DNA of 64,000 nt from a virus (IMGVR_UViG_3300015606_001334:128001-192000); one strand, 5' to 3'. Shown: positions 8,505-31,156, counted from the first letter of the stretch. Notes: generated by a model from the letters alone, not told the origin. Translations and numbers: made by a program.

Positions 8505-8649
8505 TGGTGGAGCCGACGGGTCTCGAACCACGTACGTCGCAAGGACACCGGTTTTACCTTAGATAACCATTTTCTGTCGGCTTATTTCTAAGCAAAAGTT
8601 TGAAAACGACTTTTTTGACCGGCGCGTCTACCAATTTCGCCACGACTCC
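8505..8649 (-). ncRNA. tRNA-Leu-type body with Y-RNA-like module in anticodon loop
   Basis: Leu D-loop, variable arm, A-CCA; CCGGT/ACCGG stem encloses CTTTTGCTTA-GAAA-TAAGC-C-G...GGTTATC. Confidence 0.8.
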
Positions 8650-8652
8650 ATT

Positions 8653-8770
8653 CGGTGGGGAGGAGTGGGTTTGAACCACTGACCTTCAGCGGAATACTGA
8701 TCACCTCAAGGCGGCCGCCAGATGAATGTTCTTCCAAACGCTGATGCTCTACCAACTGAGCTACCTCCCC
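8653..8770 (-). ncRNA. tRNA-like RNA with ~49-nt anticodon-loop insertion
   Basis: Normal acceptor, D and T arms; TCAGC/GCTGA stem; ends A-CCG. Confidence 0.75.
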
Positions 8771-9430: not shown

Positions 9431-9558
9431 TGGTTGAGGCGGAAGGAATCGAACCTTCTCTAGTCGGATATGAGTCGAGATAACCATCCACGAGCGGCGT
9501 ATCTCTACGCAAAAGTTGCAGGCGATGTTTTCCTGTGCTGCCAGTACACTACGCCTCA
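9431..9558 (-). ncRNA. tRNA(CAT)-like body with Y-RNA-like module before the anticodon hairpin
   Basis: TGAGGCG/CGCCTCA-A-CCA; CTTTTGCGTA-GAGA-TACGC-C-G...GGTTATC, then CTCATAT loop and T-arm. Confidence 0.8.
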
Positions 9559-13010: not shown

Positions 13011-13152
13011 AGGTCTCCCTGGATGGACTCGAACCATCGGCCCCCATAATTCCGCAGCTTAAGATGAGTTGCTACCCATCTCCGAAAATTCCATTTCGAT
13101 TTGGTCCTTTACCATGAGCGGTGGAGAGCTCTACCAACTGAGCTACAGGAAG
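13011..13152 (-). ncRNA. tRNA-like RNA with ~70-nt structured anticodon-arm expansion
   Basis: Intact acceptor, D and T arms; ends A-CCT. Confidence 0.75.
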
Positions 13153-14923: not shown

Positions 14924-14998
14924 TGGTGCCCAAGGTTGGAATCGAACCTACGACCTCTTTCGTACCAAGAAAGCGTTCTACCACTGAACTACGAGGGC
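14924..14998 (-). tRNA. tRNA-Thr(GGT)
   Basis: Loop TTGGTAC. Confidence 0.92.
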
Positions 14999-19169: not shown

Positions 19170-19298
19170 CGGTGCAGTCTGAAGGAATCGAACCTCCGTC
19201 TTCGCCTTGTAATGGATAACCATTTTCAAGCGGTTCATTTTCATGAACAAATTCAGAAAACGATGTTTATCGCTGTTCTACCACTGAACTAAGACTGC
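19170..19298 (-). ncRNA. tRNA-Val(TAC)-like body with Y-RNA-like module
   Basis: TTTGTTCAT-GAAA-ATGAAC-C-G...GGTTATC, then CC-ATTACAA-GG; ends A-CCG. Confidence 0.8.
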
Positions 19299-19353: not shown

Positions 19354-19482
19354 AGGTGGAGAGTAGAGGATTCGAACCTCTGACCACGTGCTTAACAGGC
19401 AGATAACCAATTTCGGCCGGTTTGAGCAAACAAACAAAGAGTGAAATCGACATTTACGTGCTCTACCACTGAGCTAACTCCC
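19354..19482 (-). ncRNA. tRNA(GTT)-like body with Y-RNA-like module in anticodon stem
   Basis: ACG-[insert ending GGTTATC]-TGC-CTGTTAA-GCACGT; ends A-CCT. Confidence 0.8.
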
Positions 19483-19563
19483 CAACAAAATCAGCAAGAT
19501 GACACCACTTGGTATACGTGGCTAATTAAGCATTATGTCCCCACAAATGCTCATCTTCGCTGA

Positions 19564-19639: not shown

Positions 19640-19921
19640 ATCGATGAGCTTCATAATCAAACCTACCAACTTTACGGGAAGGAGGGTTGAATGTCTTCCA
19701 GTTGCCTCGCGGCAAGTTGGTTCTTCCAGACTTCTGAAGCTCATTGATAACGATATCAGAGACTTGATCGTTAGTTAAGAGATTTTCACTGAAGCTTGTC
19801 TTTCGACTGCTACGAGCTCCGAGTACTCTTATCTGATTTGGCTTTTCCGAATTGTTAAAGAATCAACTACTTACTGAAGAATTTGAATTGTATCTCATTC
19901 ATCAGCTTTTGTAAACTGCTA

Positions 19922-20103
19922 AATTTGTTTTGTTCTGACTGCTGGACTCGAACCAGCACTACGTTCCTGGCCGCAGCCAGTGCATTACCAGTTATGCTAC
20001 TCGGGGCGGACCCCAAGGTTGGATTCGAACCAACATTTGAACAACCGCAGAATCAAAGATGCGGCGCGTCTACCAATTTCGCCAAGTCAGAACAAAACAA
20101 ATT
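19922..20103 (-). ncRNA. double-elbow fused tRNA mimic
   Basis: D1-AC1-T1-hairpin-D2-AC2-T2 closed by a 19-bp perfect helix. Confidence 0.8.
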
Positions 20104-20113
20104 GTTAAAGAAC

Positions 20114-20217
20114 AACAACTTAGGTGAGGCGTCTAGGATTCGAACCTAGGAAGTAAACCCTCATTCGTGGATGGCGAACCTGACCCGCCATTATAACCAC
20201 GCCTCAACTAAGTTGTT
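20114..20217 (-). ncRNA. tRNA-like RNA with sealed, extended acceptor stem
   Basis: T-arm CTAGG-TTCGAAT-CCTAG; AACAACTTAG.TGAGGCG / CGCCTCA.CTAAGTTGTT. Confidence 0.65.
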
Positions 20218-20244: not shown

Positions 20245-20277
20245 GAATTATATCTTCAACTTCAGGTTTTGTAAACT
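20245..20277 (-). promoter_or_regulatory. early promoter
   Basis: GTTTACA...TATAAT. Confidence 0.75.
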
Positions 20278-21747: not shown

Positions 21748-22314
21748 TCAATACACTTCATGTTTTTTGGAGTCGATATCGAACTCACCGGCAATCGCCT
21801 TGATAGAAGGCTTGTCAACCTTGCTCTTATGGTCGACATACATCTTTACCTTACCGTATTCACCAGTGATGTCAAGATACCAGTCGTGGAACATATCAGA
21901 AAGTTCAATGATGTCCTCAGAAGCCTTCTTCAACCCATCAATAAATTGCTGCTCACTATGAGGCTGGATTTTGGTAGCTCTATAAGTTTTGATCGCGGTA
22001 GGAAGCGTGTTGCCACCACCAATTGCAAAAGCGTCTGATATTGAAAACTGAATTTCGAAGCTTAGTACTTCATCGCCTGAATTTTGACCTGCATTGATTT
22101 GTACTTCAAGCATGATGTCAAGGACTTTGTTTGAAAACACTACGCCTAGGTATGTTTCATCGTCAGGCTCGGCCATGAAGTCAACGATCTTGTAGCCCTT
22201 CTTGTCAAGATCATTTTCAAAGTCGACGATTGCTTCACCGATCTCGTCTCTGAATTTCTCAAGATATTCGAAATCGATCTGTTGTTTGTTCTCTGTTAAT
22301 TGTGTTAGTTTCAT
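21748..22314 (-). CDS. paralogous family protein 1 (putative virion-internal)
   Basis: Shares F.(D/E)WY.D..G..GKVK motif with the next two ORFs. Confidence 0.75.
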   Translation of the reverse strand: MKLTQLTENKQQIDFEYLEKFRDEIGEAIVDFENDLDKKGYKIVDFMAEPDDETYLGVVFSNKVLDIMLEVQINAGQNSGDEVLSFEIQFSISDAFAIGGGNTLPTAIKTYRATKIQPHSEQQFIDGLKKASEDIIELSDMFHDWYLDITGEYGKVKMYVDHKSKVDKPSIKAIAGEFDIDSKKHEVY

Positions 22315-22895
22315 TAGAATACTCTCTTTTCAGTTTCTTTTGAGCTGGAATCTGAAGGATCTCGATCCGCGCAGAAATCTCCAGCTATTGCGACGAAACG
22401 ATTCTCTCCGCCTCGTGAATAACCTTCTACCGTGCTTCCTTGTACTTTTAGAAGCTTCACCTTACCATATTCACCAGACATATCGAAGTACCATTCAACG
22501 AAGTCTTCTACGGTCTGTTGGAATCTACGAGATGTATTTGCTATTTCCTTTTCAGCGTTGGAGTCGTGCATAAACAAGTGGAAATTTACCAATAACCGGT
22601 CATCATCTCGATAGTTAGATCCTTTGATCATCAGTTTATCAATAACTTTGGTGTTCACCATAACCATGACATACGGATCGTCTTTACCAGAAACTGCAGC
22701 GAGAATTTCGGTTTCAAGCAGTCTATTTGAAAAGATGAATGAGGTTTGGTTTCCTTTATCTTCAGAACGAACAAAGCTAAACCCTTTTGTCAGAGCAGTG
22801 ATACCATCAGAAAACACACTGAACTTTTCGGTTGATAGCTTATCTTTGAACTCTGAGAAATCAGGAGAACCCTCTTTTAGAAATTCTAGTCTCAT
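22314..22895 (-). CDS. paralogous family protein 2
   Basis: FVEWYFDMSGEYGKVKL. Confidence 0.75.
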   Translation of the reverse strand: MRLEFLKEGSPDFSEFKDKLSTEKFSVFSDGITALTKGFSFVRSEDKGNQTSFIFSNRLLETEILAAVSGKDDPYVMVMVNTKVIDKLMIKGSNYRDDDRLLVNFHLFMHDSNAEKEIANTSRRFQQTVEDFVEWYFDMSGEYGKVKLLKVQGSTVEGYSRGGENRFVAIAGDFCADRDPSDSSSKETEKRVF

Positions 22896-23491
22896 GCTGT
22901 TCTCGCTACAGTGCTATCGCCGTTGACAAAGAACTGACCGAGATACGGTGTCCACTTCCAAAGATTGTTGCTATGACCAGCCTCAAGGTCTTCAGTGATC
23001 TTGATTAGCTTCACTTTTTTTCCTGCGTCGCCAGCAATATCGAAATACCATTCTTCAAAATCCTGAGCAATCTTAAGAATCCTGTCAACGTAATCAAACA
23101 TTCTTTCCTCGCGAACCATATCAAAGTCGCGTGAGAAAGTATTTGCTAAAGCGTACTTGTGAGTGTCATGCTCTTGCATCTTCTCATGACCGAACACAAT
23201 AGTGTGATTGACCATGGATGCAATTTCTACAGTAGGATAGTACGGATATTGCTCATTGTCGTTGAACGCTGTATCCTTTCCGAAGGAAAAATCGAAATCC
23301 ACTAAACCGTTTGACACATGAAAGAACATATCTTCAGCTGAAACGTCATTCAACGTGATCTTTGTGTATTTTTTGAACTTCTCTAGAAGCTTCTTGATCG
23401 CACTGACATGCTTTGGGTCTAAGTTATCAGTGAACTCAGAAACGTCAATATCTGCTAGAGTTTCTTCTTTTAGGAATGATTGTAGTTTCAT
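22892..23491 (-). CDS. paralogous family protein 3
   Basis: FEEWYFDIAGDAGKKVKL. Confidence 0.75.
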   Translation of the reverse strand: MKLQSFLKEETLADIDVSEFTDNLDPKHVSAIKKLLEKFKKYTKITLNDVSAEDMFFHVSNGLVDFDFSFGKDTAFNDNEQYPYYPTVEIASMVNHTIVFGHEKMQEHDTHKYALANTFSRDFDMVREERMFDYVDRILKIAQDFEEWYFDIAGDAGKKVKLIKITEDLEAGHSNNLWKWTPYLGQFFVNGDSTVARTA

Positions 23492-23492
23492 T

Positions 23493-24143
23493 TTAGTGAT
23501 GATGTAAATTTTTGAAGATCAACGCACCATACATGGCTTCGTCGTGGAATTTATAATCGCTCTCGTCGAGATCTCTGTCATCGTCATAGCTAGTATCTCT
23601 ACTCATCCATTTGTTACGTGCTCTACGCCAGAGGTAAGCATCAGTGTCACCGTCAACATCACCGTCATCCCAACTAACAGGTTTACGGTCACCAATTCGT
23701 TTGTATTTAAACAGCTCGGTGTCGTTGAATTGAGCGAATACTTTTTCACCTTCTTCTTTTGTCAGCTCAAACTTTGAGCCTCTGAAAGTAATTATGAACA
23801 TTCCTGGCTTGGTTGACTTTCTCACCACGATTTCTGGATTATTTGGCGGGATGTAAGCTTCTTCCCAATTACCGTCAAATCCAGCGACGAACAGCTCAAC
23901 CTTTTCTTTTTCGGCAAAATCGAGTATTTCAGAAGCATCAGCGAGACGTTTACCGAATTCGTCGAAAAGAGACGACTTTCCGTTCATGAACTCCCCTTTA
24001 TGGGCCTCCATTGTGCCATCACTGTAATCATAATCGATATCGTCTTCAATTTCTTTTCCAGCCTTGATCAGGAGGGAAAGAAGAGCATGTTCCTGCTGGA
24101 CAGAAGCATCTTCATTAATCGATAAAAGGGAAGAGATTTTCAT
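23493..24143 (-). CDS. hypothetical acidic protein, late
   Basis: ATAAATA boxes at 24178-24185. Confidence 0.7.
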   Translation of the reverse strand: MKISSLLSINEDASVQQEHALLSLLIKAGKEIEDDIDYDYSDGTMEAHKGEFMNGKSSLFDEFGKRLADASEILDFAEKEKVELFVAGFDGNWEEAYIPPNNPEIVVRKSTKPGMFIITFRGSKFELTKEEGEKVFAQFNDTELFKYKRIGDRKPVSWDDGDVDGDTDAYLWRRARNKWMSRDTSYDDDRDLDESDYKFHDEAMYGALIFKNLHHH

Positions 24144-24199
24144 AATTCCAAACAAAAGGAAAGGGTACTAATAGTGTTTATTTATTAGTACCCTTGAGA

Positions 24200-28007: not shown

Positions 28008-28035
28008 TTTATTGTTCTTATTATGGAAGTGAGGG

Positions 28036-28420
28036 TGGGGAAATGTTTCTGTTGCCAAGTACAACTTCCCCAAAAACTCCGACAGCTTTACCTATTTAAA
28101 GGATCAAGCAGCCACGCGGTAACTTTCGTCGTTTGCGTTTAACTTTTTTCTTCCACTAACGCAGGTTGCTCTCGAGTCGTTCCAATCTTGTTACTCATGC
28201 CATGTCGAGACCTGTCGACCCCATTAAAAAGAAACCTAGTATGACGATCACGTTCTCTTACTCTTTCGTCATCCTGCCTTGCCTTCTCATAGGTAAGATC
28301 GAAGAACGATCCATCTTACCTCGGGCGACCTCCTTGCGAGAGGACTTGGTTTCTTTTTGGTGGAGTCGAGGGGAATCGAACCCCTTTCCACAACACTTTC
28401 CCAATCAAAGTCTCAGGTAT
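28036..28420 (-). ncRNA. ssrA: two-piece (circularly permuted) tmRNA, tag (A)ANDESYRVAA*
   Basis: Acceptor piece ...GGGTTCGATTCCCCTCGACTCCACCA (28358-28420) precedes the GGGGTCGA...CTCGAC 5' piece (from 28222); tag frame 28136-28104; G3:U70. Confidence 0.9.
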
Positions 28421-28592
28421 TTCTACCCATACGACTATAAAAACTCTCGGTCATTCTTTCGATCGTCTTCCCATTTATCCCAGTTGTAATGAAAGATGGA
28501 ATAAATCCAACCACCAACACAACCAATGATTGTTACAACAACGAGAAGTTTTTCTACTTGATCAACCATGAAAAGAATTATATCACTATTTA

Positions 28593-30205: not shown

Positions 30206-31156
30206 TCAATTATTTACATCTTTTGCGAGGCGCACTTGCGCGGTTTCATTACACAACGTCACCATCATACCTGAGACTTCGAACTTATCATCACGTTTGG
30301 GTCCATTGATCCGCTTTTGGACTTCCTCGATAGCATTGCGAGTCAAGTACTTTCCAAACTTCACGGAGAAATGATGGTAAAGAAAGTTCCGTTGACGATA
30401 GTCGCTTAGCTTTCTTAGGTTCACCCGATCAATTCCGGTTTCACCCGATCCGCATGATTGATTGTCTATATGGTAGAGGTCCTCAATGAGAGCCGAACAC
30501 TCCGACATATTTTGCATGGCTCGCTCAAGTGATGCATAGAACTTCCAGCTTGTGAAATGTTCCTTGAGCAATGGAATCACTTTGTTCCGAATAAAGCCCC
30601 GTGACAGTTCGGTACTATCGTTGGTAGAATCGTGCCCGTATAGTATACTGAGCGCCTCCACTTGCTGCAGGATTTCTTCTTTAGATAGATGGATAAGAGG
30701 ACGAATAAGACGGGAGTTTTTCGGATTCGAAGAAATCCCAGACAGACCTTTGACAGAACTTCCACGACATAGGCGGAAGAAAAACGTTTCGATTGAATCA
30801 TCAAGATGATGACCAGTCAGGAGAGTCTCGTTGAGCAAAAGATTGCTGTACAAAGCATCGTATCTACCCGCTCTTTCGGCAGCTTCGATTCCCTGTGACT
30901 TAACCATTCTTTCGTCAACCGTTGCCGTTAACACGGTGATTTCAAGCCCGTAGTATTTCGCCCACTCAACACAAAAATCCCGAATCTTTTCAGCGCCATT
31001 CGACGCCTTGGAATCAGGATGCATGACATGGACTAATCGAAAGTCGTATCCACCTTGCTTAAGTAGGAAAGCAAGAAGGGCAGAATCTGCCCCTCCGGAA
31101 AATGCTACGACGTAACGAAGACCAATGTGTTTTGGTAGGTTAATCATCTTTGTCAA
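30206..31156 (-). CDS. tilS: tRNA(Ile)-lysidine synthetase
   Basis: AFSGGADS PP-loop, E.A.R..RY, GHHLDDSIET, IRPL, D.TN, R..IR. Confidence 0.9.
   Translation of the reverse strand: MTKMINLPKHIGLRYVVAFSGGADSALLAFLLKQGGYDFRLVHVMHPDSKASNGAEKIRDFCVEWAKYYGLEITVLTATVDERMVKSQGIEAAERAGRYDALYSNLLLNETLLTGHHLDDSIETFFFRLCRGSSVKGLSGISSNPKNSRLIRPLIHLSKEEILQQVEALSILYGHDSTNDSTELSRGFIRNKVIPLLKEHFTSWKFYASLERAMQNMSECSALIEDLYHIDNQSCGSGETGIDRVNLRKLSDYRQRNFLYHHFSVKFGKYLTRNAIEEVQKRINGPKRDDKFEVSGMMVTLCNETAQVRLAKDVNN

What the first reader, a model, noticed from the sequence alone, without database searches (positions are those of the whole stretch)
19922..20103. Double-elbow tRNA mimic: two tRNA cores fused with swapped acceptor strands
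Seen on the minus strand, in order: 19-bp perfect closing helix; Leu-type D-arm (TGGCGAAATTGGTAGACGC); GCCGC/GCGGT stem with a 12-nt loop; T-arm; CTTGGGG-TCCG-CCCCGAG hairpin; second D-arm (TAGCATAACTGGTAATGC); CTGGC/GCCAG stem with a 4-nt loop; second T-arm. There is no CCA and no usable anticodon, yet every helix is intact, which implies selection. Inference: a bivalent decoy or scaffold for elbow-reading proteins such as tRNA nucleases, modification enzymes or RNase P.
Basis: partly seen in the sequence, partly recalled or inferred. Interest (0 to 1): 0.8.

Follow-up and report, generated by a model that had tools for sequence, protein, structure and literature searches.

The report
Two-bodied tRNA look-alike phage RNA
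A 360-kb uncultured phage and its relatives carry a conserved RNA gene of about 180 bases that folds into two tRNA-shaped bodies, one nested in the side arm of the other; it cannot read codons and most likely acts as a tRNA look-alike that binds tRNA-recognising proteins, though its job is untested.

Summary
On the minus strand, 20103-19922 folds exactly as described (19-bp perfect closing helix, two D arms, two T arms, two short hairpins, one closed acceptor-like hairpin; z = -5.05).

It is not decayed tandem tRNAs. Five further copies (four distinct variants) in syntenic relatives from metagenome assemblies keep every helix. 97% of cells are paired, 17 pairs carry changes on both sides, and 0 of 500 shuffles reach this.

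The two hairpin loops that stand where anticodons would be are not conserved, and no CCA is encoded.

A better reading than "swapped acceptor strands" is this. [quoted passage not shown] Where its variable-arm loop would be, it carries a complete circularly permuted tRNA body of the YrlA type (T arm, closed acceptor hairpin, D arm).

The gene has a sigma-70-like promoter and an rrn-type boxA-like motif abutting the helix.

The phage encodes Ro60/Rsr, a CCA-adding-type enzyme and two RNA ligases. The element nevertheless fails the tests for YrlA/Y RNA membership.

Function (a bivalent tRNA-shape mimic) is inferred, not shown. This scan noted other two-bodied tRNA-like RNAs in other giant phages. 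I found no published description.

The parts
20247..20275 (-). Sigma-70-like promoter TTTACA-17-TATAAT upstream of the unit
   Evidence: 11 of 12 matches. In L270 the same promoter lies about 23 nt upstream of the boxA-like motif, with no intervening gene.
20102..20112 (-). boxA-like motif TTCTTTAACAA, overlapping the start of the 5' strand of the closing helix by 2 nt
   Evidence: 2 matches in the window against 0.24 expected, both on the minus strand and each after a promoter. TCTTTAACA is invariant in all six aligned copies. The resemblance to E. coli rrn boxA is from my own knowledge.
20085..20103 (-). Closing (leader-trailer) helix, 5' strand. Its last 7 nt, UCUGACU, take the place of the outer acceptor 5' strand
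   Evidence: Cols 4-19 are paired in all copies and 6 pairs have changes on both sides. The core UUUGUUCUG is invariant.
20066..20082 (-). D arm 1, class II Leu type (3-bp stem, loop with GG)
   Evidence: 19-21 nt are 95-100% identical to the phage's tRNA-Leu genes; the tRNA-Leu genes align to model positions 12-171.
20044..20065 (-). Hairpin 1 in the anticodon-arm position (6 bp, 10-nt loop here)
   Evidence: The stem covaries (3 pairs with changes on both sides). The loop is 5-10 nt and not conserved.
20039..20042 (-). GUUC, 5' strand of the proposed shared variable-arm helix
   Evidence: In the minimum-free-energy fold of 3 of 6 copies, with pair probability 0-0.38. Invariant in 6 of 6, so there is no covariation for or against.
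20018..20034 (-). T arm 1 (GUUGG-UUCGAAU-CCAAC), part of the inner body
   Evidence: Together with the next 7 nt it is 95% identical over 20 nt to the 3' part of the phage's tRNA-Thr(GGU).
20000..20017 (-). Inner acceptor-like hairpin, 7 bp, closed by the tetraloop UCCG
   Evidence: 3 pairs have changes on both sides. The loop is UCCG, UUAGUC, or (in L272) a long extension capped by UUCG.
19982..19997 (-). D arm 2, preceded by UA at the 8-9 position; part of the inner body
   Evidence: GG is kept in the loop in all copies.
19967..19980 (-). Hairpin 2 in the anticodon-arm position (5 bp, tetraloop UGCG)
   Evidence: 3 of 5 pairs have changes on both sides, e.g. CUGGC/GCCAG becomes ACGGU/ACCGU. 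The loop is 4-5 nt.
19963..19966 (-). GAAC, 3' strand of the proposed shared variable-arm helix
19941..19957 (-). T arm 2 (GCUGG-UUCGAGU-CCAGC), Leu-like; stacks on the closing helix
   Evidence: 17 nt are 94% identical to tRNA-Leu(CAA). 2 pairs have changes on both sides.
19922..19940 (-). Closing helix, 3' strand. AGUCAGA takes the acceptor 3' strand position and is followed by ACAA, not ACCA
   Evidence: The core CAGAACAAA is invariant except for one G in L259.
19887..19915 (-). Next promoter TTTACA-17-TACAAT, starting 7 nt after the helix; it bounds the unit
   Evidence: Conserved in all relatives. No terminator-like site lies between them on this strand.

Best explanation
This is a real, conserved, non-decoding RNA gene of a jumbo phage lineage.

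Transcription and folding. It is transcribed from a sigma-70-type promoter through an rrn-like boxA. The RNA closes on itself with a 16-19 bp leader-trailer helix and folds into two tRNA-shaped bodies.

Outer body. It is a class II tRNA-Leu derivative made of the closing helix with T arm 2 stacked on it, plus D arm 1 with hairpin 1.

Inner body. It sits where the Leu variable-arm loop would be. It is a complete circularly permuted tRNA body: T arm 1 stacked on a closed acceptor hairpin, plus D arm 2 with hairpin 2. This is the arrangement solved for the YrlA tRNA-like domain.

The two bodies are joined by a short shared helix, GUUC/GAAC.

Function. With no anticodon loop and no CCA, it cannot serve in translation. 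It most likely works as a stable, bivalent tRNA-shape mimic. It would present two elbows or cores to proteins that read tRNA shape: either a dimeric partner, or two partners brought together.

Status of each step:
- Shown: the secondary structure, its conservation and its covariation.
- Inferred from motifs: the promoter and boxA roles.
- Inferred from connectivity and homology: which D loop meets which T loop.
- Not tested: the binding function.
For: Structure:
- The fold and its z-score.
- The 19-bp perfect inverted repeat.

Conservation:
- A single-sequence covariance model finds full-length copies at the same place in syntenic relatives, scoring 103-229 bits.
- Across the six copies, 97.1% of cells are paired and 17 pairs have changes on both sides. 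0 of 500 shuffles reach this, and slid controls give 33-45%.
- An independent MAFFT plus RNAalifold run recovers the closing helix, both T arms, the inner hairpin, D arm 2 and hairpin 2.

Not a decoder:
- The hairpin loops standing where anticodons would be are 4-10 nt and not conserved.
- ARAGORN calls differ between copies.
- The phage's normal tRNA-Leu genes encode ACCA, whereas the element has ACAA inside a helix.

Nested reading:
- D arm 1 and T arm 2 both match tRNA-Leu. The phage's tRNA-Leu genes align to model positions 12-171 with the middle skipped.
- In those genes the site is a 3-bp variable stem capped by GAAA or GCAA.

Inner body:
- It gives the best YrlA hit in the genome (29.1 bits).
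- It has the T / closed acceptor / D order described for YrlA (PMC4201824; bioRxiv 10.1101/312249).

Own gene:
- In L270 a promoter and boxA serve this RNA alone.

Context:
- The phage encodes Ro60 with TROVE and vWA_Ro60 domains, a CCA-adding-type nucleotidyltransferase and two RNA ligases.
Against:
- Only five distinct sequences are available, all from one phage lineage.
- The counting alignment was fitted to my model, which leans towards the structure.
- GUUC/GAAC never varies and has low predicted pair probability (0-0.38). The bridge helix, and therefore the D1-T2 / D2-T1 pairing, is not proven.
- The invariant 9-bp core of the closing helix points to a sequence-specific reader that I cannot name.
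- No candidate partner is linked by synteny. The tandem neighbour proteins have no Pfam family or PDB fold match.
Confidence: 0.55

Rival explanations
1. It is a Y RNA of the phage's own Ro60/Rsr. The closing helix is the Rsr site, and the two tRNA-like bodies are effector-binding modules, for example for host PNPase.
For: - The phage encodes a full Ro60.
- The same array holds about 10 copies of a bulged-helix module, CCG...GGUUAUC paired with UUUUGU, that looks like a Ro-binding helix.
- The inner body has YrlA topology.
- One strand of the closing helix (UUUGUUC) resembles the UUUUGUU strand of that module.
- Phage Ro60 binds phage Y-like RNAs and host PNPase in Thermus phage phiLo (PMC12135203).
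Against: - The closing helix is a perfect duplex with no bulge.
- It lacks the CCG/CGAA-type strand that Ro60 reads (10.1101/312249; PMC12135203).
- GGUUAUC is absent.
- The YrlA score is 29.1 against a gathering score of 69. Ordinary closely spaced tRNAs in the same genome score 28.1.
- rsr lies about 99 kb away.
Confidence: 0.15
2. It is a cis-acting processing or stability element of the stable-RNA array. The tRNA-like shapes and long helix recruit RNase P and RNase III to cut read-through transcripts and block exonucleases, with no function in trans.
For: - No terminator separates the units, so read-through transcripts must be processed.
- boxA plus a leader-trailer helix is the rRNA-operon design, where RNase III cuts (PMC10250234).
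- The neighbouring units also have 17-19 bp closing helices.
Against: - In L270 a dedicated promoter and boxA produce only this RNA.
- Two complete tRNA cores with conserved D and T loops, and covarying hairpins, are far more than a cleavage signal needs.
Confidence: 0.12
3. It is the precursor of a chargeable tRNA-Leu-like molecule. RNase III and RNase P trim the outer helix to 7 bp, the phage CCA-adding enzyme builds the end, and LeuRS, which does not read the anticodon, charges it for a non-ribosomal use or to titrate LeuRS.
For: - The outer body keeps the Leu-type D arm and T arm in all copies.
- An A follows the seventh pair in five of six copies.
- The phage encodes a PolyA_pol-family nucleotidyltransferase.
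- That E. coli LeuRS ignores the anticodon is from my own knowledge.
Against: - The helix continues perfectly past the 7-bp point, so there is no free 3' end.
- The position-73 equivalent is G in L259.
- The phage's real tRNA-Leu genes encode ACCA, but this RNA does not.
- The Leu-type core may be kept only because a class II core is needed to carry a large variable arm.
Confidence: 0.1
4. It is two decayed neighbouring tRNA genes, and the cross-pairing is chance.
For: - ARAGORN calls two adjacent tRNA-like genes.
- The array is full of homing endonucleases that could scramble genes.
Against: - A 19-bp perfect helix plus 7 of 7 cross-pairing.
- All nine helices are kept, with 17 pairs changed on both sides, across relatives whose neighbouring protein is only 68-78% identical.
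Confidence: 0.02

Closest known systems
YrlA-type bacterial and phage Y RNAs (Rfam RF02553; Chen et al. 2014, PMC4201824; Wang et al. 2018, bioRxiv 10.1101/312249)
   Same: - The inner body has the YrlA hallmark: a T arm, then a closed acceptor-like hairpin, then a UA link and a D arm, i.e. a circularly permuted tRNA.
- It has no CCA and no anticodon loop.
- It is encoded among tRNA genes, by a phage that has Ro60.
- My IMG/VR scan found 12 ordinary YrlA-like modules among about 140 pattern hits.
   Different: - It has no bulged Ro-binding stem and no CGAA/CCG strand.
- The permuted body opens at the variable arm, not at the anticodon stem.
- It is embedded in a second, tRNA-Leu-derived body, so there are two D arms and two T arms.
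- It scores 29 bits against a gathering score of 69.
- It is not next to rsr.
Class II tRNA-Leu
   Same: - D arm 1, T arm 2, the 2-nt 8-9 link and the place of the variable arm match the phage's own tRNA-Leu genes.
   Different: - The acceptor is extended to 16-19 bp, with no CCA.
- The anticodon-position loop is 5-10 nt and not conserved.
- The variable-arm loop is replaced by about 72 nt forming a whole tRNA body.
rRNA-operon leader-trailer helix with boxA (E. coli rrn; PMC10250234)
   Same: - A promoter, then a boxA-like UUCUUUAACAA, then immediately the 5' strand of a helix of at least 17 bp that closes over the structured RNA.
   Different: - It encloses a 144-nt tRNA-like RNA, not an rRNA.
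- The helix starts at boxA itself, whereas in Enterobacteriaceae boxC lies 18-19 nt downstream of boxA.
- Binding of Nus factors and cleavage by RNase III are untested.
Other two-bodied tRNA-like RNAs of giant phages, noted earlier in this scan (e1-5369352, e1-5392780, e1-5392792, e1-5402499, e1-5347828); AI notes, unpublished
   Same: - One chain, two tRNA-shaped bodies with cross-paired ends.
- Non-decoding.
- Located inside large phage tRNA clusters, with YrlA named as the closest relative.
   Different: - Those notes place the inner body in the anticodon loop or join the bodies at the anticodon end, whereas here the junction is the variable arm.
- There is no sequence likeness to this element.
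- I could not inspect their sequences.

Membership tests
Canonical tRNA (Rfam RF00005) | Score at or above the gathering threshold over the full cloverleaf | tested here: not met
   26.5 and 22.9 bits against a 29-bit threshold, model positions 8-63 only, with no acceptor stem aligned.
Canonical tRNA (Rfam RF00005) | A 7-nt anticodon loop with a conserved anticodon | tested here: not met
   The loops are 10 nt and 4 nt here. In relatives they are 5-8 and 5 nt, with unrelated sequences. ARAGORN's calls are inconsistent.
Canonical tRNA (Rfam RF00005) | A free 3' end with NCCA, encoded or addable | tested here: not met
   The outer 3' strand runs on into a 19-bp helix (ACAA) and the inner acceptor is closed by a loop. 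The phage's tRNA-Leu genes encode ACCA.
YrlA / bacterial Y RNA (RF02553) | A tRNA-like module in the order T arm, closed acceptor hairpin, D arm | tested here: met
   20034-19982 on the minus strand. The YrlA model aligns T arm 1, the hairpin and D arm 2, and these are kept in all copies.
YrlA / bacterial Y RNA (RF02553) | A terminal stem carrying the Ro60 site: a bulged helix with a conserved 5' strand (CGAA-type motif) | tested here: not met
   The closing helix is perfectly paired, with no bulge, no CGAA or CCG, and no GGUUAUC.
YrlA / bacterial Y RNA (RF02553) | Rfam gathering score of 69 bits | tested here: not met
   29.1 bits. A pair of ordinary neighbouring tRNAs scores 28.1.
YrlA / bacterial Y RNA (RF02553) | Encoded next to rsr and bound by Rsr | tested here: inconclusive
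   rsr is present in the same genome but about 99 kb away. Binding cannot be tested with these tools.
rrn-type boxA plus leader-trailer helix unit | A boxA motif just upstream of the 5' strand of a helix of at least 17 bp, formed with sequence 3' of the RNA | tested here: met
   The helix is paired over cols 4-19 in all copies.
rrn-type boxA plus leader-trailer helix unit | NusB/NusE binding and RNase III cleavage | not testable with these tools
   The phage encodes no RNase III, so a host enzyme would be needed.

The most novel reading that the evidence does not exclude
This RNA is one member of an undescribed class of multi-body tRNA mimics in giant phages. Here the design is distinct: a permuted tRNA nested in the variable arm of a class II tRNA. 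The class would work by occupying two tRNA-binding sites at once. The target could be a dimeric tRNA enzyme or nuclease, two adjacent sites on one machine, or two factors bridged together. This would give the phage control over a host tRNA-handling or tRNA-targeting defence activity.
Probability: 0.3. Interest if true: 0.85.

Novelty: new variant of a known kind. Interest (0 to 1): 0.7.

Why it matters
tRNA mimics such as tmRNA, viral tRNA-like structures, YrlA and mascRNA all carry one tRNA-like body. A conserved natural RNA with two complete tRNA cores in one chain would be a new architectural solution, and a ready probe for proteins that read tRNA shape.

It sits in a phage that also encodes Ro60, about ten Y-like modules, a permuted tmRNA, about 45 tRNAs, a CCA-adding-type enzyme and two RNA ligases. 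That makes this lineage a natural laboratory for how phages manipulate host tRNA biology and tRNA-directed defence.

The promoter / boxA / leader-trailer layout suggests that phages copy rRNA-operon logic to make untranslated structured RNAs. The design may also be useful as a stable RNA scaffold.

Tried and rejected
- Cultured-phage collection. It gave only ordinary tRNA matches and no homologue.
- IMG/VR pattern scans specific to the element. All found nothing.
- GTDB genomes. Nothing found.
- JGI metagenome scan. One near-identical copy, L270.
- Generic IMG/VR scans for a T loop, a short gap and then a D arm. They yielded ordinary YrlA-like RNAs and tandem tRNAs. My cross-pairing script found no other double form among 215 loci.
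- The only IMG/VR relative found by protein (45% identity, a 58-kb fragment) has no copy.
- Sequencing-run search for expression.
- Relatives' full records could not be searched for rsr.
- Neighbouring gene family (tandem paralogues of about 190 aa). It has no Pfam or PHROG family, and a confident model (pLDDT 84.6) has no PDB match at E <= 0.001.
- The idea that the inner loop UCCG is a masked NCCA end cut by RNase P. Rejected, because relatives have UUAGUC or a long hairpin capped by UUCG there.
- Using the 15-48 (Levitt) pair to decide which D arm meets which T arm. One relative (L255) fits the nested reading and two are ambiguous, so I did not rely on it.
- Literature searches for double, nested or fused tRNA-like RNAs. 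Nothing found.

Full report
**Setting.** The window is bases 128001-192000 of a 359,550-bp IMG/VR virus record that CheckV rates as complete.
- Nearly all genes lie on the minus strand.
- The window holds 28 ARAGORN tRNA calls and a circularly permuted tmRNA. The whole genome holds about 45 tRNA calls.
- Proteins are phage-like: NAMPT, a NadR-like enzyme, and HNH and homing endonucleases, plus a TilS-like PP-loop ATPase.
- No cultured phage is close.

**Observation.**
- The closing helix is a 19-nt, 100% complementary inverted repeat with 144 nt between its arms.
- The minimum-free-energy fold is -74.7 kcal/mol and reproduces all helices. Shuffles give -53.95 +/- 4.11, so z = -5.05.
- ARAGORN makes two abnormal calls here.
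- Rfam's tRNA model matches only positions 8-63 of each half, below threshold. The best other family is YrlA: 29.1 bits against a gathering score of 69, aligned over T arm 1, the closed hairpin and D arm 2.
- The element occurs once in the genome.

**Is it selected?** I searched for homologues of the protein encoded about 1.65 kb upstream (window 21748-22314, minus strand) and found relatives at 37-84% identity.
- Their contigs are syntenic: the same tandem small genes, a permuted tmRNA and a tRNA array.
- A covariance model built from the window copy alone finds one full-length copy at the matching place in L260, L259 (identical in L262), L255 and L272, scoring 103-146 bits. A pattern scan of JGI metagenomes added the near-identical L270.
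- On the six-row alignment, 97.1% of cells form standard pairs, and 17 of 58 pairs change on both sides somewhere. 0 of 500 shuffles reach this, and sliding the partners drops pairing to 33-45%.
- Changes on both sides occur in the closing helix, hairpin 1, the inner hairpin, hairpin 2 and T arm 2.
- An alignment made without the model (MAFFT plus RNAalifold) recovers the closing helix, both T arms, the inner hairpin, D arm 2 and hairpin 2.
- Decay of two tRNA genes is therefore excluded for practical purposes.

**What is and is not conserved.**
- Kept: both D loops with GG; both T loops (UUCRAnU); the Leu-type D arm 1; the tetramers GUUC and GAAC; and a 9-bp core of the closing helix, UUUGUUCUG/CAGAACAAA.
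- Free to vary: the loop of hairpin 1 (5-10 nt), the loop of hairpin 2 (4-5 nt), and the cap of the inner acceptor hairpin (UCCG, UUAGUC, or a long extension capped by UUCG in L272).
- There is thus no anticodon. ARAGORN names different "anticodons" in different copies, or none.
- The inner loop is not a masked CCA end.
- The phage's ordinary tRNA-Leu genes encode ACCA. This RNA has ACAA buried in a helix.

**A better anatomical reading.** D arm 1 is 95-100% identical to the D arms of the phage's tRNA-Leu genes, and T arm 2 is 94% identical over 17 nt to tRNA-Leu(CAA).
- With the covariance model, those tRNA-Leu genes align to positions 12-171 with the middle deleted.
- In these genes the variable arm is a 3-bp stem capped by GAAA or GCAA. 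In the element, the same site holds GUUC...GAAC enclosing T arm 1, the closed hairpin, D arm 2 and hairpin 2.
- So the outer body is a class II tRNA-Leu derivative. The insert is a complete cloverleaf, circularly permuted and opened at its own variable arm.
- This is the same secondary structure as "swapped acceptor strands", but it predicts that D1 meets T2 and D2 meets T1.
- That prediction fits the connectivity. Each D arm is tied by two nucleotides to the helix on which the other half's T arm stacks, as in tRNA and in the YrlA crystal structure (10.1101/312249).
- The bridge helix is only inferred. It never varies and has pair probability 0-0.38.

**Gene organisation.**
- Two sigma-70-like promoters, TTTACA-17-TAYAAT, flank the element.
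- Each is followed by TTCTTTAACAA: 2 matches in the window against 0.24 expected.
- This motif, the downstream promoter and the second motif are conserved in all relatives.
- From my own knowledge, the motif resembles the E. coli rrn boxA, UGCUCUUUAACAA.
- In L270 the promoter, the motif and the element follow one another directly. In the window, a separate 104-nt tRNA-like gene with its own 19-bp closing helix is inserted between the promoter and the motif.
- Promoter, boxA, then a leader-trailer helix of at least 17 bp is the layout of rRNA operons. There, boxA-bound Nus factors prevent Rho termination and are proposed to hold the leader strand until the trailer emerges, and RNase III cuts the helix (PMC10250234).
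- I infer the same logic here. It would also favour the long-range helix over two local cloverleaves.
- The phage has no RNase III gene, so processing would rely on the host.

**Relation to Y RNAs.**
- The phage encodes a full Ro60 with TROVE and vWA_Ro60 domains but no RtcB.
- Between 8.5 and 19.5 kb of the window there are about ten copies of a bulged-helix module, CCG-N-GGUUAUC paired with UUUUGU. Some stand alone next to T arms, and some sit inside the anticodon arms of tRNA bodies. Earlier notes of this scan read these as Y modules, and relatives carry them too.
- The double element lacks that module. Its closing helix shares UUUGUUC with one strand of the module, but it is perfectly paired and lacks the CCG/CGAA-type strand that Ro60 reads (10.1101/312249; PMC12135203).
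- The 29-bit YrlA score is no better than that of two adjacent ordinary tRNAs (28.1 bits).
- I therefore do not file it as a Y RNA, although a link to the Ro60 system remains possible.

**How common is it?**
- A scan of IMG/VR for a T loop followed after 20-22 nt by a D arm gave about 140 sites. At 12 of them the intervening strands form a perfect 7-bp hairpin, where about 0.1 would be expected. These are ordinary YrlA-like RNAs with one body.
- No other double form was found in 215 loci.
- Specific patterns found nothing more in IMG/VR or in GTDB genomes.
- This scan has noted other two-bodied tRNA-like RNAs in other giant phages. They share no sequence with this one, and by their descriptions they are joined at the anticodon end. 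Those notes are unchecked by me.
- I found no paper describing such RNAs.

**Mechanism and odds.** Four things are well supported (about 0.9):
- The RNA is a conserved structured gene.
- It has two tRNA-like cores.
- It does not decode.
- It has its own promoter.

The function is inference. I favour a stable bivalent tRNA-shape mimic that binds protein(s) reading the elbow or core (0.55 overall for the full statement).

Rivals:
- A variant Y RNA for the phage Ro60 (0.15).
- A purely cis-acting processing or stability element (0.12).
- A precursor of a chargeable Leu-type mimic (0.10).
- Decayed genes (0.02).

The phage's CCA-adding-type enzyme and two RNA ligases show heavy investment in tRNA upkeep, but they do not discriminate between these readings.

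Noticed in passing
window 20114-20217 (-): A separate tRNA-like RNA of about 104 nt: a 7-bp acceptor extended to a 19-bp closing helix (95% complementary), a normal T arm, an unusual body, and no CCA (z = -4.64). It is absent from the near-identical contig L270, where the promoter runs straight into boxA. Here it therefore looks like an insertion flanked by boxA-like repeats.
   Followed up: partly
window 19852-19862 and 20102-20112 (-); promoters 19887-19915 and 20247-20275 (-): Repeated units of promoter, boxA-like TTCTTTAACAA and a closing helix, conserved in the relatives. This suggests that the phage's stable-RNA array is organised like an rRNA operon.
   Followed up: partly
window 19640-19748 (-): A third long-range helix (17 nt, 88% complementary, 75 nt between the arms) downstream of the second boxA-like motif. 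The start of this unit, GGAAAAGCC...GAUAAGAGUAC, is conserved in the relatives. Its identity is unknown.
   Followed up: no
window 8508-8650, 9431-9558, 19173-19298, 19357-19483 (-): tRNA bodies with intact acceptor, D and T arms, whose anticodon arm carries a 55-70 nt insert containing the CCG...GGUUAUC / UUUUGU bulged-helix module. They may be tRNA-Y RNA chimeras.
   Followed up: partly
window 14091, 16757, 17638, 18185, 18395, 18593 (-): Stand-alone copies of the same CCG-N7-12-GGUUAUC module directly after tRNA genes, several enclosing a T arm. About 10 copies lie on the minus strand of the window and none lies near rsr. The relatives L255, L259 and L260 have five each.
   Followed up: partly
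window 8656-8770 and 13014-13152 (-): Two further tRNA hits of 115 and 139 nt, with 40-65 nt inserts at the anticodon loop and without the GGUUAUC module. The inserts are too short for group I introns.
   Followed up: no
window 28013-28450 (-): A circularly permuted (two-piece type) tmRNA with tag ANDESYRVAA. Relatives carry one with tag ANDSQFAVAA or ANDSQFAIAA at the syntenic place.
   Followed up: partly
window 21748-23491 (-): Tandem paralogous genes of about 190 aa sharing a WY(F/L)D..GEYGKVK motif, conserved next to the RNA array in all relatives (a fourth adjacent gene, 23493-24155, was not compared). They match no Pfam family (the one tested matched no PHROG), and a confident AlphaFold model has no PDB match.
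   Followed up: partly
G000:C1:47685-49292 (-), outside the window: A phage Ro60/Rsr orthologue of 535 aa (TROVE plus vWA_Ro60), flanked by DHFR and an HNH endonuclease. No Y-like RNA lies next to it.
   Followed up: partly
G000:C1:119950-120023 (-), outside the window: A tRNA with anticodon CUA (ARAGORN labels it 'Pyl'). It could be an amber suppressor.
   Followed up: no
window 30206-31156 (-): A PP-loop ATPase (ATP_bind_3, TilS-like), conserved in the relatives upstream of the array. It is a possible tRNA-modifying enzyme.
   Followed up: no
window 14924-14998 (-): The tRNA-Thr(GGU) call has two mismatches in its acceptor stem (GCCCUCG against CUUGGGC). Its T arm and 3' strand are 95% identical over 20 nt to T arm 1 plus the inner hairpin strand of the double element, so it may be the source of that part.
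   Followed up: no
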